A DNA stretch of 63,022 nt, filler included. It is 12 parts of 12 records of this genome, joined end to end, with 100 filler letters (N's around TTAATTAATTAA, not from the genome) between each part and the next. Parts side by side here need not be neighbours in the genome. Positions count along the whole stretch, not along the records: positions 25,251 to 30,295 come from SRR15195285_3714; 11 more parts are not named here. The stretch is one strand, 5' to 3'. Positions within the stretch are counted from its first letter, which is position 1, and every line of letters starts with the position of its first letter. Both the position numbers and the translations under genes were made by a program. The notes beneath the pieces were generated by a model. That model was not told where the DNA came from. It ran no database searches and saw nothing but the letters and a program-made list of their open reading frames with translations. Below, piece by piece: positions 3,896 through 55,455 of this stretch.

Positions 3896-3995
3896 NNNNN
3901 NNNNNNNNNNNNNNNNNNNNNNNNNNNNNNNNNNNNNNNTTAATTAATTAANNNNNNNNNNNNNNNNNNNNNNNNNNNNNNNNNNNNNNNNNNNN
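3896..3995. other. Artificial contig linker; identical linkers at 9182-9281, 13692-13791, 18603-18702, 25151-25250, 30296-30395, 36283-36382, 43909-44008, 47945-48044, 51181-51280, 55356-55455
   Basis: Eleven 100-nt blocks of N with central TTAATTAATTAA (stops in all six frames). Confidence 0.99.
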
Positions 3996-9180: not shown

Positions 9181-9429
9181 CNNNNNNNNNNNNNNNNNNN
9201 NNNNNNNNNNNNNNNNNNNNNNNNNTTAATTAATTAANNNNNNNNNNNNNNNNNNNNNNNNNNNNNNNNNNNNNNNNNNNNGTTTCCGGAACCGGTTCCG
9301 GAAACCGTGAAACCCAGTTCCACTAAACCCCCTCCTGTCCTACGAGGATTCGCACAAAGTGTCTATACCAATGTACGTGCAGGAACAAACAAGTTGGGCG
9401 GGAAATTATGGCGAACATGCAGACGCATA

Positions 9430-13191: not shown

Positions 13192-13934
13192 CTGACGCTT
13201 TGGCACACACGGTACGTCTCGTCGACGCATTGGCTTCCTGCGAATGCGTGTGCCAGGTAGTATCGTGAGTACACTGTAAGATCCTCCGAGACCGGGGCTT
13301 ACGACAATGTACATATTATGCCCGATGTAATTCCCTGTGGATCACCAACAGTGTCCGTCAAAACTATTCGAGAAATGGTACGCTATTGCGTGCGTGGCTC
13401 GCTCGCGACTGTTTGTCGAGTTACCTGATGCCGTGATCGTCGCTGAAGAAAATAATCACGAAGCTTCGGGTAGTCTAGTGTGGAGGCACTACTTGGTTTG
13501 GCACATGTAGACCCACCCAGGACCCGATCGATGTGCCCAGCAGCTGAGACGGCTCCCAGCCGACTCAGTCCCGCAGGTAGTGGCGGTCAGTCATTCATGA
13601 ATGGTTTCTCTGAGAGATCAGGCAGAGTCACTGTCTGTCAGCGGCCATAGCTTGAGAGGCACTGTGTTTCTGGCAAAAAAGGGCTTCGACANNNNNNNNN
13701 NNNNNNNNNNNNNNNNNNNNNNNNNNNNNNNNNNNTTAATTAATTAANNNNNNNNNNNNNNNNNNNNNNNNNNNNNNNNNNNNNNNNNNNNTTCCGTACT
13801 GTTTGACTTCACATGCGGAGTGAGCCAGAAAATGGATCATTCCGTCGCAGGGCAGGCACCAGGCAGGGCAGGCACGGTGGCACGCGCACGGTGATTTGAT
13901 CAGCGCGCGGCTTCTTGAGCTGTTGCGCCGCCCC

Positions 13935-18228: not shown

Positions 18229-19175
18229 CTCTGATGGCAGCATCACAACTCCATCAACAATTTTCTTCGTGTACCAATCGGTCATCGGACCTGAAACGAT
18301 TAACAAAACAATCTCTTCTTACATCTTCCTCCAGACACTACACTCCAGTTTATCACTCCCTTCGCCTACAAAAGGATCTGATATGGGGCTAGATAATGGG
18401 GGCAGACCCAGGGGAGAAAGCGAACCCCCCCATTCAACCTCCTGGGACCAACTGATCAGTACCCGTGTAAATGCACATCACTTCGGCTTCGACTTCGAGC
18501 GACGCTGCCGGTGGGCCTAGCCGCTCCTAGTCGCTTTGCACGCTTCGCACACGTTTTGTGGCACCCTGTGACCACATGTGATCCTGGAAGCTTCCAGGAT
18601 CANNNNNNNNNNNNNNNNNNNNNNNNNNNNNNNNNNNNNNNNNNNNTTAATTAATTAANNNNNNNNNNNNNNNNNNNNNNNNNNNNNNNNNNNNNNNNNN
18701 NNCGCACACGGTACTACCGCGCGCTTGTTCTTCTCGTGCCGTAACAGGGGAATTTCACGCACTCCGAGCAACCCGGCGACCGCAACACAAATTATGCAAG
18801 ACTTGAATCTGGATCGCTATGTGTGGTGGGCCTCCCTATGCCGGGTGCAGGTTGCAATTGAAACGCTCGGTGCGTGGTGAGTGGGAGTGTTCCGACCGCC
18901 GTGCTCCCGGAACCGACTGTAGATCCTGCACTACCCTCGCACATGTGCAGCGGGCGAGTGACTCCGGCTTCGGACATTGCTGCTGAAACGGCAAATCGGA
19001 GACGAGAGATGACCTCGCGCCCGCTGTCGTGCGGCCGGCGCGGCCCATGCAAGAGAATACCACAGACTCGCGTTTACGGTCAGCAAGGGATACATTGAAA
19101 TTGCGCAGCAGCTACGCGATTCAGTTTCCAATGGCTCCATCTGGACCGTCAGCGACCCGCTCGCGACATGCCAAC

Positions 19176-24936: not shown

Positions 24937-26087
24937 CTCTCTCGCACGAACGCTGCGATCCGACGGGGCGCGCGTCCGTCACGCAGTCCCGCAGTCTGGA
25001 GGGTCCGTCGCGTTTATCGCGAGCGCGTCCACCGTCCGAGCGTCCGTTCGGTGGCTGGGTCGTGGGCTGGGTCATGCATACTACTTACTAGTATGGGCTG
25101 GGTCAGAGGGTGTCGACTGGAAATGAATAAATTCATAACTTTGTACGAAANNNNNNNNNNNNNNNNNNNNNNNNNNNNNNNNNNNNNNNNNNNNTTAATT
25201 AATTAANNNNNNNNNNNNNNNNNNNNNNNNNNNNNNNNNNNNNNNNNNNNCGCAGCTGGGGTCGCTGTGGGCCCGTGGTGTTAGTGGGTGCCTGCCACAG
25301 TAGCGGTTTGGCTATAGTCGCGGGGGGGGGGCGGTGCTGTAGGCAGCCATCTGCGGTGGTGCGGCCGCCGACTTGTGCTGGGGCCTTAGGAGATAGGGGG
25401 GTCAGGCAGCAGGGTGGTGCCCCAGAGCCGCAGATCAAGAGCTTGCTGCCGGTTTCGGGGCTAGAGGGCTTAGTATTGAGTAGGAGGGTGTGGCCAGCTG
25501 TCTCAGCGGGTCAGCTGGGGCCTGTAGTGGCTGGTGGGTGGGGTGTGCTCGCCTGTTTACATGATCAGACATTTTAAGTCAGATCAATGACGTCTGTTGT
25601 GGCCGTGGTCATGGACGGTGGTACGTAGCCTGGACCTCTGTTGAACGTGCTTGCAGACCGGTTCTCACCACGTCTACGGGGCGTCTGTGGCACGTCAGTG
25701 GCAACAGTCCGTGGCCTTGCGGATGCCTCTGCTCGACTGAGCCGTCCCAATGCGACCTGGGAGACACCGTCCGTCACATACGGATCCTCTCGTGGCAGTG
25801 GGTCGGAGCGCAACAGATCTGGCCGGGACGCGAGCGTGTCCGCAAGCATGGCAAACTCCTCGACGCTTGGCTGTATAGTCAGTCTCTGGCAATCGCGCGC
25901 GCTTCATTTTCTATGGTCAGCCAAAAAATTAGAGATCATGTACCGGTACCGAGTACATGTACTGTACCGGTACCAGTATTTCAATTTCTGAAATCTCCGT
26001 ATTTTGTTGACTCTGAAAGGAAAGGCCTCAAGGTCCGAAAGCCCGAAGGCCCGAACGTATACCCTACTAGATACCAATACCGGTACA

Positions 26088-26594
26088 TCATAGGACTTCC
26101 ACGAAAAGATCCTGGCTCTGCTCTAACCGATCCAGCGTAATCTGTAGGTGCTGGTCCTTGATGACGAGTTCGACGCGCGAGAGAATGGTATTTTCCCGAA
26201 TTTCGAGGTAGTTGTTTGTGAAGTCCTCGACGGTGGCAACCGGCGAGCTCGGGTTGTTCTTGTTCACGCCAGCTTCAATTGCTGCGCGAGCAATGCCTTG
26301 TTGAAGCGCGTCGAGCGACGCGTAAAGACCCGGCTCGACTGTGAGAGTGAAGCCGACCTGATCCGTGCCTGGTGGTCCGGCACCCTCGTAGAATAGCTCA
26401 ATTTTGTTGTTGCTGGCCGTCACGTTGGGAAATGCGTACACGCACGATGCTGACTGAACGAAAATGCGTGTGTTTTTCGCGTTAGGAGGGATCTTGGTCG
26501 GCGGATCGAGCTTCACATCGAAGGCATGGCCAGTGACGCTACGATTGGCTCCGCGGCCACTGTTCAGGAAGAAGGGGAGCTGAACCGTCGTCAT
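26088..26594 (-). CDS. PLV/virophage-type minor capsid (penton) protein, C-terminally truncated
   Basis: FDVKLDPPTKIP..VQSASCVYAFPNVTASNNKI..TLTVEPGLYASLDALQQGI matches the Polinton/PLV penton pattern L.PP..IP..AS..Y..PN....NN..T+..G.Y..L...I; start context AATAAATG. Confidence 0.78.
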   Translation of the reverse strand: MTTVQLPFFLNSGRGANRSVTGHAFDVKLDPPTKIPPNAKNTRIFVQSASCVYAFPNVTASNNKIELFYEGAGPPGTDQVGFTLTVEPGLYASLDALQQGIARAAIEAGVNKNNPSSPVATVEDFTNNYLEIRENTILSRVELVIKDQHLQITLDRLEQSQDLFVEVL

Positions 26595-26624
26595 TTATTG
26601 GGACGACTAGAATCTTTGCACGGC

Positions 26625-27332
26625 TCACACGACCTCTTCAACTTTCACGGATGTCGGCATGAAACTCGAATCATCGTCGTAAGTGGCTTCCCACACTTGC
26701 TGCCCGAGGCAGAAAACGAGGAGCTCGGTGTTGCCGCTCGTACCGGTGCCTCCGAAAGTCAGGCGAGTGGTAAGGTTCTGGGCCACGGAATCGCGGTTGC
26801 CCATAATTCTGAATGCCAGCAACATATCGTCTTCGAATTCGGACAGGTTCTGCGCGCCGGCAGTGTTGCCGATAGAACCCTTGAGGAAGTTCTGCCATTC
26901 GCTCCATGGCCTTATGATTCTGCCCTGTTTTGCGTCGATTTGGAAGGCTGGCTGGGGCAAAACTTGGCCTGCTAGCGTGATACTGGCGCTCGTGATGCGG
27001 CCATTGCCATCGCCGTCGTGACCAAGCTTGCCGGCGGTCTGGCCAAGCAACTCTCGGTTCTGCGCGAGCGAAGGCGTGCCTCCCTCGCGAAGACCAATGA
27101 TGATTCGAGTCGTGTTGACGGGGATCGTAAACTGTTGTGTCAGATTCGTTGTGCCGTTGTCGAGCTGTTTCGTGAGCAAAGTGATATATGCTTGCCCAGT
27201 GGCGACTCTTTGCATTGATTGAAAGCCGCCGTCAACTGTTTTTGGGTCAGATTCATACCTCTGGCCAGATAGCCCCAACTCGAACGATCTGCAGGTGGCC
27301 ACACGATATGCGTTGTACAACACCGACGCCAT
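26625..27332 (-). CDS. PLV-type major capsid protein, C-terminal jelly-roll only
   Basis: QQFTIPVNTTRIIIGLR..ITLAGQVLPQP..GAQNLSEF..LLAFRI..LTTRLTF..ELLVF resembles the second jelly-roll of PLV MCPs; first ~45 aa may be non-viral. Confidence 0.65.
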   Translation of the reverse strand: MASVLYNAYRVATCRSFELGLSGQRYESDPKTVDGGFQSMQRVATGQAYITLLTKQLDNGTTNLTQQFTIPVNTTRIIIGLREGGTPSLAQNRELLGQTAGKLGHDGDGNGRITSASITLAGQVLPQPAFQIDAKQGRIIRPWSEWQNFLKGSIGNTAGAQNLSEFEDDMLLAFRIMGNRDSVAQNLTTRLTFGGTGTSGNTELLVFCLGQQVWEATYDDDSSFMPTSVKVEEVV

Positions 27333-27408
27333 TTCGGTGCAAGGTTGGTATGCGCGTGGCAGGTAATCAAACAGAGTATACCGAGGTGACTACAGCACGT
27401 TCTCAGCA

Positions 27409-30294
27409 TCATCTCCATGTTCTTTTTCTCGACCTTGTCCATATCTCGCCATCACTGTCATCATCATCGTCATCGTCGTCAATGTCAGCGTCATCCATCG
27501 TCACGGCATGAAGCATCGGATTGGCGAACGTGGCTTGTACCGTGTTGCCTTTCTTGGCCTTCTTACCCTTCTGGACCTTCTTGCCCGTCTTCCTCGCCGT
27601 CTCGCCTCCCTCGCCCTCCTCCTCATCATCAGTGCCATCGGCGGCTTGCTCCTCCGACATGCCCGTGCCTTGCGCACGCACGTCTTGCACACTCATACCC
27701 AAGACATAGATCGTCACCGGTAAGATTGCGACAGTCAGCAACACCTGGCTAGTTCCGTAGTCGTCGATTGTCAACAGCTCCGCCGCAATCTGGTCACCCT
27801 TTTGATGCGTCTGCAGGACCACGCACGTCAGCAAAATCCCATAGATTTGGAACTCGGAGCATATCTTTATTGCGTTCAGCCGCGCCGTGTTGAAAGGCTG
27901 CGCGTGGAAGCTGAGCGCGAAGAACATGAACGAGATCAGGGTAGCGAGCACTGTCTGCGAAATGGAGCCACGCTGGAAGACACTGATCAGCCCAGAGAGG
28001 ATCAGCTTGCGGAAGAGCTCAACACACTCCCAGTACCAGTGGGAGGCTTTGTAGTCACCAAGCACAAAATCAAACTTTTGCACCGTGTCGGGATCCCCGG
28101 CCTGAATGAGCTCTCGCTCCTTCCACATCATGAACAGCAATCCGGACGGTAGCCCGATTGGCCACAGCACAACCAGTACAGCGCACGAGATCCATATCAG
28201 GGTGTACGTCTCTGATTCGCACTCGACACTGTAGTCTACAGTTAGGACAGACGACGTCAGTCCGATGGAACGGCAACTGAATCCTTCGAATATCTTGTTG
28301 GTTACCGCAGGATACAACAAGAAGACTAGCAGGAACAATCGTCCTGTCGCACCGTCGCGGATGTTTGCCCTGGCTACCCGCTTGACCAGTGCCTGCAGCC
28401 CACCGTCCATCGCACTGTCGCCGTGCTGACTGACAGCGGCATGAAACTCCCCAAAGTCGATCGAGCCTCCGCCGTCCGTGTCGGCCTTGTCGAACAGACT
28501 CTGGACCTGCGCGTCGTCGGCCTCTGGATTGATCTTGCGGACGACCTCGCGCATCTCGACTATCGTGATTCCCTTGCCGTCTGCATCGAACTGGTCGAAC
28601 AGCTCCTTCAAATGTTGTCGGTGCAGACCCTCGCCGTCGTCAACACCAAAGTCCTCGTGATCCGACTGCCTGACCTCCCACAGATACACGAGCCCGACTG
28701 AAATTGAGATGAGAACGACGAGGGATATATTTATGACCAAGGAAGACACGTAGCTGCCGCTGGAGACACAGCCTAAGCTGAATAGCTCCACAATGTCGAA
28801 CCGGAACCACGACCCGACCAGGTCGATGAAATCAGTAAACACGGTGGGGAGAGTTATTGAGAGCACCGCGGCGAGGTTTCCGACGATTTGCATCGTCGAA
28901 CAGATCTGCTTCGCGATAGCCTTAAGCTCCAACTCCTGCGCGAGCGCAAATATCTCTTGAAGAATGACGAAGTAGTTGTACCACATGGACGTTTTTCTGG
29001 CGAGCACCACGATGACGAAGATGGCGAGGAATCCTATGATCATTCCACCGAATGACGACGTAGACTCATTACATGCTTCACATGCACCGTCCCGAGTTAG
29101 CGCGAATCCATCCGAGTGGCAAGAGCCGCAGAGTGGATAGGTGTAGCCAGCCGTACAAGCGGTGTCATTGCCGCTTGCCACTACACCTCCAGGACAGGAT
29201 TCCCCGTACCTGCACGCAAAGATGGAGACGCTGCTATCACGGCTCTGCACCGGCGCCCAGCCTGGCGCAACTGAGACCCAGCCCTCGTGACAATCGTCGA
29301 TGCACTCGAGGCCAGACGCACCAATCCCACATGGCATGCATTCATAAGCTGACGTGATCGTGGTGGTATCTTGACCGCTGAACTCTCCACTGAAGCAAGA
29401 TGGTTTGATGGAAGTGAATCTGTAGTGATGATCCTTGCAGACGCAGCGAGAACGATCGGCGCTGGCAATTTCGTTGTATGGGCACACAACACAGGCGGTC
29501 CTTGTCTCGTCCGGAACGCTGTCGTACTCACACACCTCGCACTCGATCTCGCCTGGTTTTCGCACCATCCCTACATCGCAGACGAAGGAGAAGGATGGAG
29601 CCACAGCAGGGTTGATGGAACCCGTTACTGCGCCTGTCCGCAGTGCACTTGTCGGGTCACTAAGTTGTCGCGTGAGTTCAAGTAGCGCTTCGGTAGTGTT
29701 CGGCGATCGAATTACGAAATCAAATTCTGCCACTACCACCTCCTGCAGGCGGCGGCGGCCGTCCAATGCCAGTCTGCGCAGACCATCGACGCTTACTTCA
29801 TTTGCAGAGAGGCCCATGGCTTCTGCGAGCTCGGCAGTGAGCTCTGCGAGCAGAGTGGCGCGTGTGCTGCTTCCTTCTACCGTAGCTTCTTCTTCTACCT
29901 GCATCTGTATCGTAATCTGTACAATGGCATTGACGCCAGACTCGACAATATCTTGCACTACCATCGGATCCGTCATTGGACTAGCACCGACATCGACACA
30001 CACAATCTTGTCGCTGTTGGCGGCAGTACCAAAGGCACACTGCTCGCATTCTCGGCCCGTAGATACACGGTTGCCGGAACATGTCTCGCACATTGATCTA
30101 TTTTCCGAAGGCATAGACCCTGGACCGCAGCTCCGGCAGAGCGATTGATCAACATTGGTAACCTCGCCTTGGCCAGAGCACATGGTGCACACAGAACCGT
30201 CAGCACTAGCGCTGCCAGTTGCGCACCTACCACAGCCTACAAGGGCGGCTGAACCAGTAGCCATGGAGGGCTCGTACCCTGGCTCACAGTCCAC
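27409..30294 (-). CDS. Cys-rich ectodomain multi-pass membrane protein with cytosolic EF-hand pair, 5'-truncated
   Basis: CxxC repeats, RRRL/SEA-like segment, CTAGYTYPLCGSC, several TM helices, EF loops DADGKGITIVE and DTDGGGSIDFGE, YWECVELFRKLIL. Confidence 0.8.
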   Translation of the reverse strand: MDCEPGYEPSMATGSAALVGCGRCATGSASADGSVCTMCSGQGEVTNVDQSLCRSCGPGSMPSENRSMCETCSGNRVSTGRECEQCAFGTAANSDKIVCVDVGASPMTDPMVVQDIVESGVNAIVQITIQMQVEEEATVEGSSTRATLLAELTAELAEAMGLSANEVSVDGLRRLALDGRRRLQEVVVAEFDFVIRSPNTTEALLELTRQLSDPTSALRTGAVTGSINPAVAPSFSFVCDVGMVRKPGEIECEVCEYDSVPDETRTACVVCPYNEIASADRSRCVCKDHHYRFTSIKPSCFSGEFSGQDTTTITSAYECMPCGIGASGLECIDDCHEGWVSVAPGWAPVQSRDSSVSIFACRYGESCPGGVVASGNDTACTAGYTYPLCGSCHSDGFALTRDGACEACNESTSSFGGMIIGFLAIFVIVVLARKTSMWYNYFVILQEIFALAQELELKAIAKQICSTMQIVGNLAAVLSITLPTVFTDFIDLVGSWFRFDIVELFSLGCVSSGSYVSSLVINISLVVLISISVGLVYLWEVRQSDHEDFGVDDGEGLHRQHLKELFDQFDADGKGITIVEMREVVRKINPEADDAQVQSLFDKADTDGGGSIDFGEFHAAVSQHGDSAMDGGLQALVKRVARANIRDGATGRLFLLVFLLYPAVTNKIFEGFSCRSIGLTSSVLTVDYSVECESETYTLIWISCAVLVVLWPIGLPSGLLFMMWKERELIQAGDPDTVQKFDFVLGDYKASHWYWECVELFRKLILSGLISVFQRGSISQTVLATLISFMFFALSFHAQPFNTARLNAIKICSEFQIYGILLTCVVLQTHQKGDQIAAELLTIDDYGTSQVLLTVAILPVTIYVLGMSVQDVRAQGTGMSEEQAADGTDDEEEGEGGETARKTGKKVQKGKKAKKGNTVQATFANPMLHAVTMDDADIDDDDDDDDSDGEIWTRSRKRTWR

Positions 30295-30476
30295 GNNNNN
30301 NNNNNNNNNNNNNNNNNNNNNNNNNNNNNNNNNNNNNNNTTAATTAATTAANNNNNNNNNNNNNNNNNNNNNNNNNNNNNNNNNNNNNNNNNNNNAGGAG
30401 GGTTTAGTGGAACTGACTTTGCGGTTTCTGGAACCGTTGAGGATATAGAGTCGTACTAGCGAGTACACACCGCGCG

Positions 30477-36082: not shown

Positions 36083-36399
36083 CGGCGCCGCACGGTCGGT
36101 ACGTACGCCGGTACAGATAGTACCGACCGTCGTCCGCCTGCCACCAGTGCGCCCTGCGACGGCGGCGCGCGCGGCGCCGGCGGGCGCCACGCACGCGCGC
36201 ATGCACAGCAGCCAGAATTCCGGCCCTGACGCGTTCGAGCCACACCGCTCCAGAAGGACTGTGGAGGTCAGTGACGGACTGANNNNNNNNNNNNNNNNNN
36301 NNNNNNNNNNNNNNNNNNNNNNNNNNTTAATTAATTAANNNNNNNNNNNNNNNNNNNNNNNNNNNNNNNNNNNNNNNNNNNNATTTCTCACCGGAGCAG

Positions 36400-43796: not shown

Positions 43797-44008
43797 CTGC
43801 TGTCCTGTTCGCTGGAACCGAAGGTTGCAATTAGGGGTGGGGTCAACTGTCGTGTACTGTCAGACCTTGCAACGTTGCAAGGGTTAGACTTACTAACTTT
43901 CTAAAATTNNNNNNNNNNNNNNNNNNNNNNNNNNNNNNNNNNNNNNNNNNNNTTAATTAATTAANNNNNNNNNNNNNNNNNNNNNNNNNNNNNNNNNNNN
44001 NNNNNNNN

Positions 44009-47905: not shown

Positions 47906-48287
47906 GGTAGGAATCTCGAGGAATATTAGAATCGAAGATTCTAGNNNNNNNNNNNNNNNNNNNNNNNNNNNNNNNNNNNNNNNNNNNNTTAATTAATTAA
48001 NNNNNNNNNNNNNNNNNNNNNNNNNNNNNNNNNNNNNNNNNNNNTCAAATCACATTGTACTTAAACGCTACATGGATGTGGATTCGCGCGTGGATGCGTG
48101 CATACCCAGGTACGCAGGACGGCGCGCGGCCGCGGAGGTATACGTGGTACCGACGACACCTGGACCGTTAGGCTGCGGTTGTACCCGCGCGCACGAAGCA
48201 AGGTTCGTTCATATATACAGTACGCGTACGCGAAGAGAAGAGTTGGCCACGCAGGAGGTATACGTAGGGAGAGAGTTGGCCACGCAC

Positions 48288-50150: not shown

Positions 50151-51400
50151 CTTACTGGGTTGCTATTCGAATACCATGATGTCCTACTCTGCCGTATACT
50201 ATATGAGTCTTGACACAATCATCTGACGTGTTCGCGGCTGTCCCGCCTCAAATCTATGCAGACGGAATGGCAAAAATAAATGCACCCGCCGTTTGCTATA
50301 CACAGCTGTACGTGTACGCGACCACAGCGCCTTTGTTCCCACAATGCTCGGCAGGCCGTCCATTGGACTTTCCCAACACACAGACACACAGGGCATACGG
50401 CTGTATGCCCTAGGTGTAAGACCTGACAACCTTTCGGATGTTGCTAAACTAGCTAGGTGCCCCTGTCTCATGCCTTCTACTAGCACTGCCAACATGAATA
50501 AAACGGCTTTAAACTTCAATGCATTCATGTTCATACCACGTTCCAAGCACACAAGCATCGTGTCCGCCCCAACGCATTCGCAGCGTGTCCACAAGATACC
50601 TGGCAGTTGTCGATTGATTGCAGCCGACGAGAAGCAGTCACGGATGGGCACACGTCTGGTTTGTGGTTTCAACCGGAGAAATCAGACCCACTTCTAAGCC
50701 ATCAGCCGTCCGCCCTGAGTTCTTTTTACAGAAAGGACGTTGCAAGAACTGATGTTTAGGGCATACGTGGGCCTTATGCCCGGTGTCACCATGTGCTAAA
50801 AGGCCGACCGTTGACTTCGACTGGGCTGTGTCTTGTATAGTGGTCGCGCAGTCCCTCTGCACTAGCCACCTTATGCTCGCCCACACATTCAAGTTTCAAG
50901 AAATCGGCTCTTCTAGCTACAGAATGGTCTACATGGCACTCTCACGCCCCACCCACACGCATTCGTGCAGCTTCTCGCCACGCATATTGCCACATATTAG
51001 ACACTTCTCCCACAGCTTGGAATGACGTGTGAGCGGTGGCGGCGGAAGAGGTGTAGCATAACAAGGGTTGTATTTCCCACATGTGGTGCTCAACCTTTCG
51101 CATTTGTTCGGTGCTTAATTGCCTGCTAGTCGACTGCCCGCAGCGATCGACTGCACCAAGATGTTAAACTTGCCAGCAACNNNNNNNNNNNNNNNNNNNN
51201 NNNNNNNNNNNNNNNNNNNNNNNNTTAATTAATTAANNNNNNNNNNNNNNNNNNNNNNNNNNNNNNNNNNNNNNNNNNNNTGCTGCTGCTGCTGCTGCCG
51301 CCGCCGCCGCGTGTCAGCTGCGAGGGCCCTCTGCTCGTTGCTGCTGGGCCAGTGGTGCCGGGGGGAGAGCTCGTCGGCTGCGGGCCCAGAGGTTGAGCAT

Positions 51401-55355: not shown

Positions 55356-55455
55356 NNNNNNNNNNNNNNNNNNNNNNNNNNNNNNNNNNNNNNNNNNNNT
55401 TAATTAATTAANNNNNNNNNNNNNNNNNNNNNNNNNNNNNNNNNNNNNNNNNNNN

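What the first reader, a model, noticed from the sequence alone, without database searches (positions are those of the whole stretch)
26088..27332. Endogenous Polinton-like-virus capsid module (MCP + penton) stranded in host DNA
Seen: two intronless beta-strand-rich ORFs in tandem, 30 bp apart, the second with an AATAAATG start, beginning 76 bp after the stop of a host membrane-protein gene. Knowledge: PLVs, virophages and Polintons encode an adjacent double-jelly-roll MCP and single-jelly-roll penton, and the PN....NN / G.Y..L pattern is characteristic of the penton. Inference: this is a fragment of a possibly undescribed PLV lineage infecting this protist. Both genes look cut (MCP lacks its N-half, penton its C-part), and no ATPase, pPolB, integrase or terminal repeats are visible, so it is a captured piece and not a complete provirus.
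Basis: partly seen in the sequence, partly recalled or inferred. Interest (0 to 1): 0.85.

Follow-up and report, generated by a model that had tools for sequence, protein, structure and literature searches.

The report
Broken virus capsid genes in protist
A 1.35-kb scrap of a small DNA virus (pieces of its DNA-packaging enzyme, its major capsid protein and its vertex protein) sits at the very end of a cellular ion-channel-like gene of a marine protist; this is an ordinary kind of viral fossil, but it ties an apparently undescribed virus lineage to a possible host.

Summary
The two ORFs exist as described, and both are truncated capsid genes. ORF1 (26625-27332, minus strand) carries the last 187 residues of a ~547-aa protein. 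The AlphaFold model of a full-length relative matches only double-jelly-roll major capsid proteins (VIA-align Z 19.4 to 8.3, then 6.7). ORF2 (26088-26594) is the first 168 residues of a 405-458-aa protein whose model matches mavirus, PBCV-1, Sputnik and adenovirus pentons. Window 27188-27442 encodes residues ~124-208 of the 238-aa A32-like packaging ATPase that precedes the capsid gene in relatives, and ORF1's first 48 codons are this remnant read out of frame. The viral block (27442 to 26091) therefore starts inside the last codons of a TRP/EF-hand channel-like host gene. Metagenome alleles of that gene continue with their own tail at exactly that point. A weak match (6 of 2000 shuffles) suggests the host tail resumes at 25876. 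The window is 12 short contigs joined by spacers, and relatives come from amplified single-cell assemblies named Picozoa. No read piece shown to me bridges a junction, so a chimeric contig is not excluded (~0.2). Verdict: a degraded endogenous fragment of a Polinton-like-virus morphogenesis module, a new member of a known kind.

The parts
27409..30294 (-). Cellular TRP / EF-hand channel-like gene, cut by the contig end at 30295. Its homology to close alleles ends at 27442. Its last 10 codons and its stop (27441-27409) lie in virus-derived DNA.
   Evidence: Pfam TRP PF06011 and EF-hand. P0201 residues 1-375 match 28563-27442 at 93.6% identity, then diverge. Alleles P0201 and P0202 continue after '...DGEI' with 'SPSFNSLSVAADTSARS...'.
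27188..27442 (-). Fragment (residues ~124-208 of 238) of the A32-like packaging ATPase gene. It lacks the Walker A and Walker B parts and the last ~30 residues.
   Evidence: tblastn of the L004 ATPase, residues 126-208, matches 27436-27188 at 72%, E 3.5e-41; the L002 ATPase, residues 138-222, matches 27442-27188 at 69%, E 3.7e-38. The gene lies directly upstream of the capsid gene in L001, L002 and L004. Atlas features place it in Pox_A32 clusters at 0.98.
26625..27188 (-). C-terminal 187 codons plus stop of the major capsid gene. This is the second jelly roll only, joined out of frame to the ATPase fragment at about 27188.
   Evidence: P0016 residues 361-540 match 27188-26649 at 93.9%, E 8e-109. 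Alignment A1. Fold of the full-length relative.
26595..26624 (-). Native intergenic spacer between the capsid and penton genes, carrying AATAAA just before the ATG.
   Evidence: A similar (A/G)TAAA(C/G) word lies upstream of capsid-module start codons in most related loci.
26091..26594 (-). First 168 codons of the penton (vertex) gene. Homology stops at 26091, and a TGA (26088-26090) follows at the break.
   Evidence: P0034 residues 1-168 match 26594-26091 at 90.5%, and P0033 at 94.6%. Relatives continue 'GFD/EQTQTLHSP...' up to 405-458 aa. Fold of P0042.
25877..26090 (.). Unassigned filler between the penton break and the possible resumption of host sequence. It holds a 157-bp stretch (25935-26091) bounded by 14-nt inverted repeats, with GTACCGGTAC palindromes.
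   Evidence: Inverted repeats I7 and I10. The motif count in the window is 4 against 0.02 expected, but one palindromic site (counted on both strands) lies in an unrelated coding ORF. There is no similarity to the loci or to the rest of the window. The hairpin fold is not unusual: z -1.63.
25814..25876 (-). Possible displaced 3' tail of the host gene ('IQPSVEEFAMLADTLASRPDL'). This is tentative.
   Evidence: The tail of allele P0202 aligns here with 9 of 21 identities. 6 of 2000 shuffled tails score as well within the 840-bp flank. The P0201 tail gives 133 of 2000 and the P0147 tail 570 of 2000.

Best explanation
Window 27442 to 26091 (minus strand) is a dead, rearranged remnant of the particle-building module of a small double-stranded DNA virus of the Polinton-like-virus/virophage kind. 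In intact relatives the gene order is packaging ATPase (238 aa), double-jelly-roll major capsid protein (~547 aa), then penton protein (405-458 aa), with 23-62 bp spacers. The window holds ATPase residues ~124-208, joined out of frame to capsid residues 361-547. The native spacer and penton residues 1-168 follow. About 1.2 kb has been deleted between the first two pieces, and the penton is cut after codon 168. The block lies inside the last codons of a cellular TRP/EF-hand channel-like gene, whose reading frame now ends 10 codons into viral DNA. What is shown: the identity of the three gene pieces, their order and orientation, the exact break points, and the existence of uninterrupted alleles of the host gene. 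What is inferred: viral DNA entered the chromosome, either by integration followed by deletions or by capture of viral DNA pieces at a break. The remnant is no longer functional as a virus, because no piece can fold into a whole protein. It probably has little effect beyond replacing the channel protein's variable acidic C-terminal tail.
For: Capsid identity comes from a full-length relative, P0016, modelled with a 16-sequence alignment (pLDDT 54, pTM 0.58). Foldseek on BFVD gave 88 hits at E<=0.001, led by virophage, giant-virus, adomavirus, adintovirus and mavirus major capsid proteins. VIA-align against 48,161 PDB chains put 15 double-jelly-roll capsid or scaffold proteins in the first 15 ranks (Z 19.4 to 8.3), and the next row scored 6.7. 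Penton identity comes from the P0042 model (pLDDT 72.6). It matches a PBCV-1 capsid chain (8h2i_bG; I could not confirm it is the penton), the mavirus penton, adenovirus penton base and Sputnik chain N, with 38 hits at E<=0.001 in PDB and 49 in BFVD. The ATPase fragment rests, and its family: all ten best family-bearing Atlas clusters carry Pox_A32, score 0.98, Viruses 89-100%. Synteny: the capsid gene is followed by the penton gene in 9 of 9 testable loci, and preceded by the ATPase gene in 3 of 3. The host side is cellular: TRP and EF-hand domains, and 93.6% identity to metagenome protein P0201 up to residue 375, which corresponds to window 27442. P0201 and P0202 then continue with their own tail, which amounts to an empty-site allele. 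The host tail may resume at 25876 (6 of 2000). Other deletion derivatives and capsid scraps fused to unrelated sequence occur in related assemblies and in metagenome assemblies: P0002, P0011, P0013, P0014, P0015 and P0139. GC is alike in the viral and host parts, 0.51-0.56 against 0.555.
Against: The contig is only 5 kb, and the window is a string of such contigs. Its closest relatives come from records that the tool names Picozoa sp. COSAG02/06 and SAG25 and Picomonas judraskeda (COSAG03). A preprint on Picozoa CO-SAGs (passages read) says such assemblies were made from multiple-displacement-amplified single cells. From general knowledge, that method creates chimeric joints. Of the contig pieces of four seawater metagenomes laid on the contig, none of the 32 listed (105 not shown) bridges 27442, 27188 or 26090. 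The three pieces have no stop codon or frameshift in 438 codons and keep every invariant family residue. They are therefore no older than a contemporary virus would be. The resumption of the host tail rests on one of three queries and 9 of 21 identities. Picozoa cells are reported to carry DNA of ingested viruses (passages), so viral DNA in such a cell need not be chromosomal.
Confidence: 0.68

Rival explanations
1. Chimeric contig. The cell contained DNA of this virus, either infecting or eaten and possibly already a defective deletion genome. Whole-genome amplification or assembly then joined it to the end of a host gene, so nothing is integrated.
For: The assembly is short-contig. The named relatives come from amplified single-cell co-assemblies. 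Intact capsid and penton genes in one such record carry coverage labels of 530 and 570 in their names, against 1-25 for most other named contigs, so abundant free viral DNA was probably present. No junction-bridging piece was shown. The viral pieces are undecayed. The host-virus joint lies beside a low-complexity Asp-codon run, 27449-27493.
Against: This needs three separate joints within 1.4 kb, all keeping the same strand and the native gene order. Both flanks appear non-viral, and the left flank may be the same host gene's tail. Capsid scraps next to cellular-looking sequence also occur in metagenome assemblies, for example P0015 with a kinase motif.
Confidence: 0.22
2. The fragment is real and kept for a function. 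The open frames (second jelly roll of the capsid protein, N-terminal part of the penton) would be expressed from the host gene's 3' region and would interfere with assembly of incoming relatives of the virus, a dominant-negative defence.
For: Both frames are open, the penton piece keeps its native start and upstream AATAAA word, and there are no disabling mutations within the pieces.
Against: The capsid piece has no native start: its ATG lies in out-of-frame ATPase DNA. Neither piece contains a whole jelly-roll domain set. I saw no second copy or orthologous copy with the same break points: cluster members of ORF1 do not cover the joint. Openness is equally explained by youth. No RNA data were examined.
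Confidence: 0.04
3. The classification is wrong. The module belongs to a virophage, to a small giant-virus-like lineage, or to a giant virus, and not to a Polinton-like virus.
For: Structural matches are tied between virophage, giant-virus, adomavirus and adintovirus capsid proteins at 7-13% identity. The nearest Atlas clusters for the ATPase are labelled Nucleocytoviricota as often as Preplasmiviricota. A 2026 preprint (passages read) describes 20-30 kb viruses whose ATPases resemble those of giant viruses.
Against: The three morphogenesis genes are packed head to tail with 23-62 bp spacers. From my recall, this is the layout of small Polinton-like and virophage genomes, whereas giant viruses scatter these genes. 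The longest named contig holding the capsid gene is 14.9 kb, with the gene numbered 14. A distant penton relative lies in a 32-kb viral contig with primase-helicase, methylase and lipase-like genes.
Confidence: 0.25

Closest known systems
Endogenous Polinton-like viruses and virophage-like elements of protist genomes (Bellas et al. 2023, PMC10120064, passages read; Cafeteria endogenous mavirus-like elements, PMC8547959, search listing only)
   Same: Capsid-module genes of a small DNA virus lie in a unicellular eukaryote's assembly, on a short contig. The genes are recognisable only by fold or profile. The paper notes that such genes often sit on short contigs and look fragmented.
   Different: Here the piece is demonstrably cut: three gene fragments with exact break points against 90-95% identical full-length relatives. 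It sits inside a host coding region. The paper's main text does not mention Picozoa (0 occurrences). Its supplements were not available to me and may list more hosts.
Mavirus and Sputnik capsids (PDB 6g45, 6g42, 3j26)
   Same: The major capsid protein has a double-jelly-roll fold (Z 15.2 and 15.9). The penton has a single jelly roll with an insertion domain (E 3.9e-7 and 7.1e-5). The capsid genes are adjacent.
   Different: Sequence identity is 7-13%. There is no profile match by sequence. I saw no cysteine protease, integrase or polymerase for this lineage.
Tetraselmis viridis virus S1 and similar Polinton-like viruses; IMG/VR contigs L012/L013
   Same: The penton model matches a Tetraselmis viridis virus S1 protein (E 9e-13). 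The L012 293-aa protein matches the penton profile (hhalign probability 96.9%, E 1.7e-10), in a contig with primase-helicase, DNA methylase, lipase-like and glycosyltransferase genes.
   Different: In L012 the neighbouring 460-aa protein is not detectably related to this capsid family (hhalign probability 0.7%). The gene order there is penton-like gene first, and no close relative of this capsid or ATPase was found in IMG/VR by the pattern scans.

Membership tests
Double-jelly-roll major capsid proteins (PRD1-adenovirus lineage) | Two eight-stranded jelly rolls in one chain, matching solved capsid proteins over most of the length | tested here: met
   Tested on the full-length relative P0016. 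The first 15 PDB rows are double-jelly-roll capsid or scaffold proteins, Z 19.4-8.3, with 236-390 aligned residues. BFVD gave 88 hits at E<=0.001. The model is of low confidence (pLDDT 54). The window copy keeps only residues 361-547, the second roll.
Double-jelly-roll major capsid proteins (PRD1-adenovirus lineage) | Sequence-profile membership (Pfam Capsid_NCLDV, Capsid_N or similar) | tested here: not met
   There is no Pfam hit for P0016, P0021 or P0030 and no hit to PDB sequences with profile A1. Atlas neighbours carry Capsid_N or Capsid_NCLDV in only 11-24% of members.
Penton (vertex) proteins of adenovirus/virophage/giant-virus type | Single jelly roll with an inserted domain, matching solved pentons | tested here: met
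   The P0042 model (pLDDT 72.6; jelly-roll parts above 90) matches a PBCV-1 capsid chain (8h2i_bG), the mavirus penton 6g42, adenovirus penton base and Sputnik 3j26_N. The window copy has only residues 1-168 of 405-458.
Penton (vertex) proteins of adenovirus/virophage/giant-virus type | Gene adjacent to the major capsid gene | tested here: met
   Met in 9 of 9 loci with sequence downstream of the capsid gene, and in the window.
A32-like (FtsK-HerA) packaging ATPase | P-loop ATPase of about 240 aa with Walker A and B motifs, next to the capsid genes | tested here: met
   The L004 and L002 proteins of 238 and 237 aa contain APPNKGKSS and V/IIDDY (I named the motifs from recall). The gene lies upstream of the capsid gene in 3 of 3 loci. 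The window fragment starts after both motifs.
A32-like (FtsK-HerA) packaging ATPase | Match to Pfam PF04665 Pox_A32 | tested here: inconclusive
   hmmscan gives no hit at E<=1 apart from weak AAA_25 and nSTAND3. PDB sequences match only around the P-loop. The Atlas feature search gives Pox_A32-bearing clusters at 0.98 for all ten best family-bearing hits.
Polinton-like virus (as a genome type) | 15-40 kb genome with the capsid module plus a replication module; often terminal repeats | not testable with these tools
   All related loci are 2.9 kb or shorter. The longer named contigs (14.9, 8.2, 6.4 kb) could not be fetched.
Endogenous viral element | Host sequence on both sides in one molecule | tested here: inconclusive
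   The right side is clear. The left side is suggestive only (6 of 2000 for one of three queries). No bridging read piece was shown.

The most novel reading that the evidence does not exclude
The fragment is a genuine chromosomal fossil of an undescribed marine lineage of small DNA viruses whose natural hosts are Picozoa. Picozoa is an uncultured phylum for which viral DNA in cells has so far been read mainly as food. The same lineage would be present both as intact, very high-copy genomes and as many independently decayed deletion fragments in these cells. That would give the first infection-type virus-host link for the phylum.
Probability: 0.45. Interest if true: 0.6.

Novelty: new member of a known kind. 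Interest (0 to 1): 0.4.

Why it matters
Endogenous copies are the main way hosts are assigned to the very abundant Polinton-like viruses (passages). A real host-virus junction in this protist would assign a host to a capsid/ATPase/penton family that is common in seawater metagenomes: clusters of 28, 159 and 11 members. That family is absent from Pfam, PHROGs and, by my scans, IMG/VR. It would also qualify the published view that viral DNA in Picozoa cells comes from grazing. By itself the fragment is a non-functional relic, and viral fossils of this kind are now known in many protists.

Tried and rejected
Sequence libraries gave nothing for the window ORFs or their full-length relatives:
- Pfam: best E 0.1-0.39.
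- PHROGs: E 0.14.
- PDB sequences, by single protein and by profile.
- Rfam on 25251-26700: 0 matches.

No whole genome is held for the window.

IMG/VR scans:
- Capsid profile: 50 pattern matches, 0 relatives.
- ATPase profile: 94 pattern matches, 0 relatives.
- The full penton alignment was too diverse to make a pattern. A 4-sequence alignment found 2 distant loci.

Sequencing runs: 19 runs hold only 0.07-0.14 of the sampled words. Four were laid.
- No listed piece bridges 27442, 27188 or 26090.
- Bins 25589-25757 had no cover in any run.
- Identical short pieces of the viral part occur in X1 (26885-27150) and X3 (26304-26454, 26476-26626). An identical piece of the host gene occurs in X3 (29652-29802). 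These do not show linkage.
- A 575-nt contig of X4 fits 26965-27178 with 214 of its letters and goes on unlike the window. This is what an intact relative would do, but I cannot see its other part.

Exact look-ups of the host frame and of the ATPase-frame ORF found nothing. The members of ORF1's 90% cluster cover only the capsid C-terminus, not the joint.

The 840-bp left flank has no similarity to the rest of the window or to any locus by blastn or tblastx. The 157-bp inverted-repeat stretch does not fold unusually well: z -1.63, with 9 of 200 shuffles as good. Its palindrome also occurs inside an unrelated coding ORF, so I do not call it a transposon. Earlier findings of this scan returned nothing in 3 look-ups.

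Full report
**The observation.** The region holds two minus-strand ORFs, 26625..27332 (235 aa) and 26088..26594 (168 aa). They are separated by 30 bp, and the second starts in CCCAATAAATG. Upstream, 76 bp away, a long frame (27409..30294) ends. It carries TRP-channel and EF-hand Pfam domains. One fact about the window changes how everything must be read. It is not continuous DNA. It is 12 contigs joined by 11 identical 100-bp spacers (N44, TTAATTAATTAA, N44), and the finding lies in a contig of only 5,045 bp, 25251-30295. The other contigs carry ordinary cellular eukaryote genes in long uninterrupted frames: cyclic-nucleotide-binding/EF-hand, ankyrin, GH67, calpain, ion-transport and HtrA-like protease.

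**What the two ORFs are.** No library recognises either ORF by sequence (Pfam, PHROGs, PDB sequences). Both nevertheless have many relatives in metagenomes.

- ORF1 found 15 proteins of similar length and 17 longer ones of 453-565 aa. The best, P0016 (547 aa), is 94% identical.
- Only ORF1 residues ~49-235 align, to residues 361-547 of the full-length proteins.
- ORF2 found 91 representatives at E<=0.001. It equals residues 1-168 of proteins of 405 aa (P0034, itself cut by a contig end), 458 aa (P0169) and 410-437 aa.
- No other piece of either gene lies anywhere in the window.

**Folds.**

- *Capsid protein.* P0016 was modelled with 16 sequences. Confidence is low (pLDDT 54, pTM 0.58), but the model is clearly two beta sandwiches.
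  - Foldseek against BFVD gave 88 matches at E<=0.001. They were led by the Qinghai Lake virophage capsid protein (1.7e-14), giant-virus capsid proteins, adomavirus LO7, an adintovirus protein and the mavirus capsid protein.
  - VIA-align against 48,161 PDB representatives put 15 double-jelly-roll proteins in the first 15 ranks. These were PBCV-1, Faustovirus, ASFV p72, an Orf virus scaffold protein, Sputnik, mavirus, EhV-201, Melbournevirus, SGIV, PRD1, STIV, PM2, adenovirus hexon and FLiP. Z ran from 19.4 to 8.3, and the next row scored 6.7.
- *Penton protein.* P0042 was modelled with 32 sequences (pLDDT 72.6, above 90 in the jelly-roll parts).
  - In PDB it matched a PBCV-1 capsid chain (9.6e-8), the mavirus penton (3.9e-7), adenovirus penton base and Sputnik chain N.
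  - In BFVD it matched proteins of CeV, Tetraselmis viridis virus S1 and CroV, adomavirus LO5, and virophage minor capsid proteins.

The capsid and penton calls are therefore right.

**The missed third gene.** In the three metagenome loci that include DNA upstream of the capsid gene (L001, L002, L004), a 237-238-aa P-loop protein ends 34-70 bp before the capsid ATG. Pfam does not recognise it. In the ESM Atlas, all ten best family-bearing neighbour clusters carry Pox_A32, at score 0.98 and with Viruses 89-100%. This points to the packaging ATPase.

tblastn of this protein against the window hits 27436/27442 to 27188 (69-72% identity, E 1e-38 to 1e-41), covering residues ~124-208. That stretch is the 100-codon ORF 27140..27442, and it overlaps ORF1 in another frame. 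ORF1's ATG and first 48 codons are therefore ATPase DNA read out of frame. The ATPase piece ends, and the capsid piece begins, at the same base (about 27188). Roughly 1.2 kb is missing between them: the ATPase tail, the spacer and 360 capsid codons.

The native order ATPase, capsid, penton and the orientation are preserved. Synteny is conserved: the penton gene follows the capsid gene in 9 of the 9 loci that have downstream sequence (11 loci fetched).

**The junctions.**

- *Right side.* Close alleles of the host gene from metagenome assemblies (P0201, P0202; 93.6% identity) match the window up to '...DDDDSDGEI', which corresponds to window 27442. They then continue with 'SPSFNSLSVAADTSARS...'. 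The window instead continues with WTRSRKRTWR and a stop, read from ATPase DNA. The viral block thus begins within 27437-27442, inside the host coding region, and uninterrupted alleles exist.
- *Left side.* Penton homology stops at 26091, where a TGA follows. The next 214 bp are unassigned and hold a 157-bp stretch bounded by 14-nt inverted repeats. From 25876 the minus strand reads 'IQPSVEEFAMLADTLASRPDL', which aligns with the P0202 tail at 9 of 21 identities.
- *Permutation test.* Within the 840-bp flank, 6 of 2000 shuffled P0202 tails scored as well. The figures were 133 of 2000 for the P0201 tail and 570 of 2000 for the unrelated P0147 tail.

The left-side match is suggestive of a simple insertion with host sequence on both sides, but it is not proof.

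**Is it really in the chromosome?**

*Evidence for:*
- There are three joints in 1.4 kb, all collinear and on one strand.
- Both flanks are non-viral.
- An empty-site allele exists.
- The host tail possibly resumes beyond the insert.
- A family of other deletion derivatives and scraps occurs in relatives. P0013 is the ATPase N-terminus joined to an internal capsid piece. P0139 is the capsid N-terminus joined to the penton's last residues. P0002, P0011 and P0014 are further scraps. P0015, from a metagenome assembly, holds a kinase motif close to a capsid scrap.

*Evidence against:*
- The tool names the relatives' records Picozoa sp. COSAG02/06 and SAG25 and Picomonas judraskeda (COSAG03). A preprint on Picozoa co-assemblies says these came from multiple-displacement amplification of single cells (passages). 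From general knowledge, that method makes chimeric joints.
- Intact capsid and penton genes in one of those records sit on contigs labelled with coverage 530 and 570, so free viral DNA was probably abundant.
- A study of protist single cells found viral DNA in 9 of 9 Picozoa cells and read it as grazing (passages).
- The three pieces show no decay at all.
- The read test did not settle it. The runs hold small shares, and no listed contig piece bridges a junction.

I put the chromosomal reading at about 0.7 and the chimera at about 0.2.

**Comparison with what is known, and novelty.** The layout is that of the morphogenesis module of Polinton-like viruses and virophages: a small A32-like ATPase, a double-jelly-roll capsid protein and a penton, packed head to tail. 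The layout statement is from recall. The 2026 framework preprint uses exactly these genes (passages).

Membership of a named group could not be tested. Related loci are 2.9 kb or shorter, identity to any known capsid protein is 7-13%, and the capsid profile does not match the putative capsid protein of the one distant IMG/VR relative found through the penton.

Endogenous elements of this kind are known in many protists (PMC10120064, passages). Four literature searches found no report of such an element in this phylum: Picozoa with 'polinton-like', with 'major capsid protein' and 'single-cell', with 'virophage', and with 'SAGs' and 'viral'.

I rate the finding a new member of a known kind, with moderate interest for host assignment and low interest as a mechanism.

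Noticed in passing
window 3896-3995, 9182-9281, 13692-13791, 18603-18702, 25151-25250, 30296-30395, 36283-36382, 43909-44008, 47945-48044, 51181-51280, 55356-55455: Eleven identical spacers (N44 + TTAATTAATTAA + N44) show that the window is 12 unrelated short contigs strung together. Neighbourhood across a spacer means nothing.
   Followed up: yes
window 26595-26624; L001, L002, L005, L007-L011 upstream of capsid-module start codons: A short (A/G)TAAA(C/G) word lies about 5-30 nt upstream of the start codons of the capsid and penton genes in most related loci. It is a possible late-promoter or TATA-like signal of this virus lineage. L004 and L006 are less clear.
   Followed up: partly
proteins P0033/P0132, P0139, P0013 (relatives, not in the window): Other deletion forms of the same module exist. 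One is a 216-aa penton lacking its middle, in two metagenome contigs. One is the capsid N-terminus fused to the last residues of the penton. One is the ATPase N-terminus fused to an internal capsid piece. They could be defective genomes, decayed insertions or amplification artefacts.
   Followed up: no
records named: Contigs with intact capsid (6.4 kb) and penton (1.3 kb) genes in one named Picozoa co-assembly carry coverage labels of 530 and 570, far above most other named contigs (1-25). This suggests a high-copy free or replicating virus in those cells.
   Followed up: no
window 25251-25588: The contig's left end is matched, with indels and 5-12% differences, by short contigs of all four seawater metagenomes laid. 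It may be a repeated or conserved non-coding element and could explain why the assembly broke here. No Rfam family matches.
   Followed up: partly
L012 12465-16493 (-) and neighbours: A 32-kb IMG/VR contig with a distant penton relative also encodes a 1,342-aa protein with a C1q domain, a PriCT_2/D5-like primase-helicase, an N6/N4 DNA methylase, a lipase-like protein and a family-2 glycosyltransferase.
   Followed up: no
window 27449-27493 and 27601-27655: Low-complexity Asp/Glu-codon repeats lie at the 3' end of the host gene, right beside the host-virus joint. The read tool also flagged 27449-27493 as a repeat where reads seem cut.
   Followed up: no
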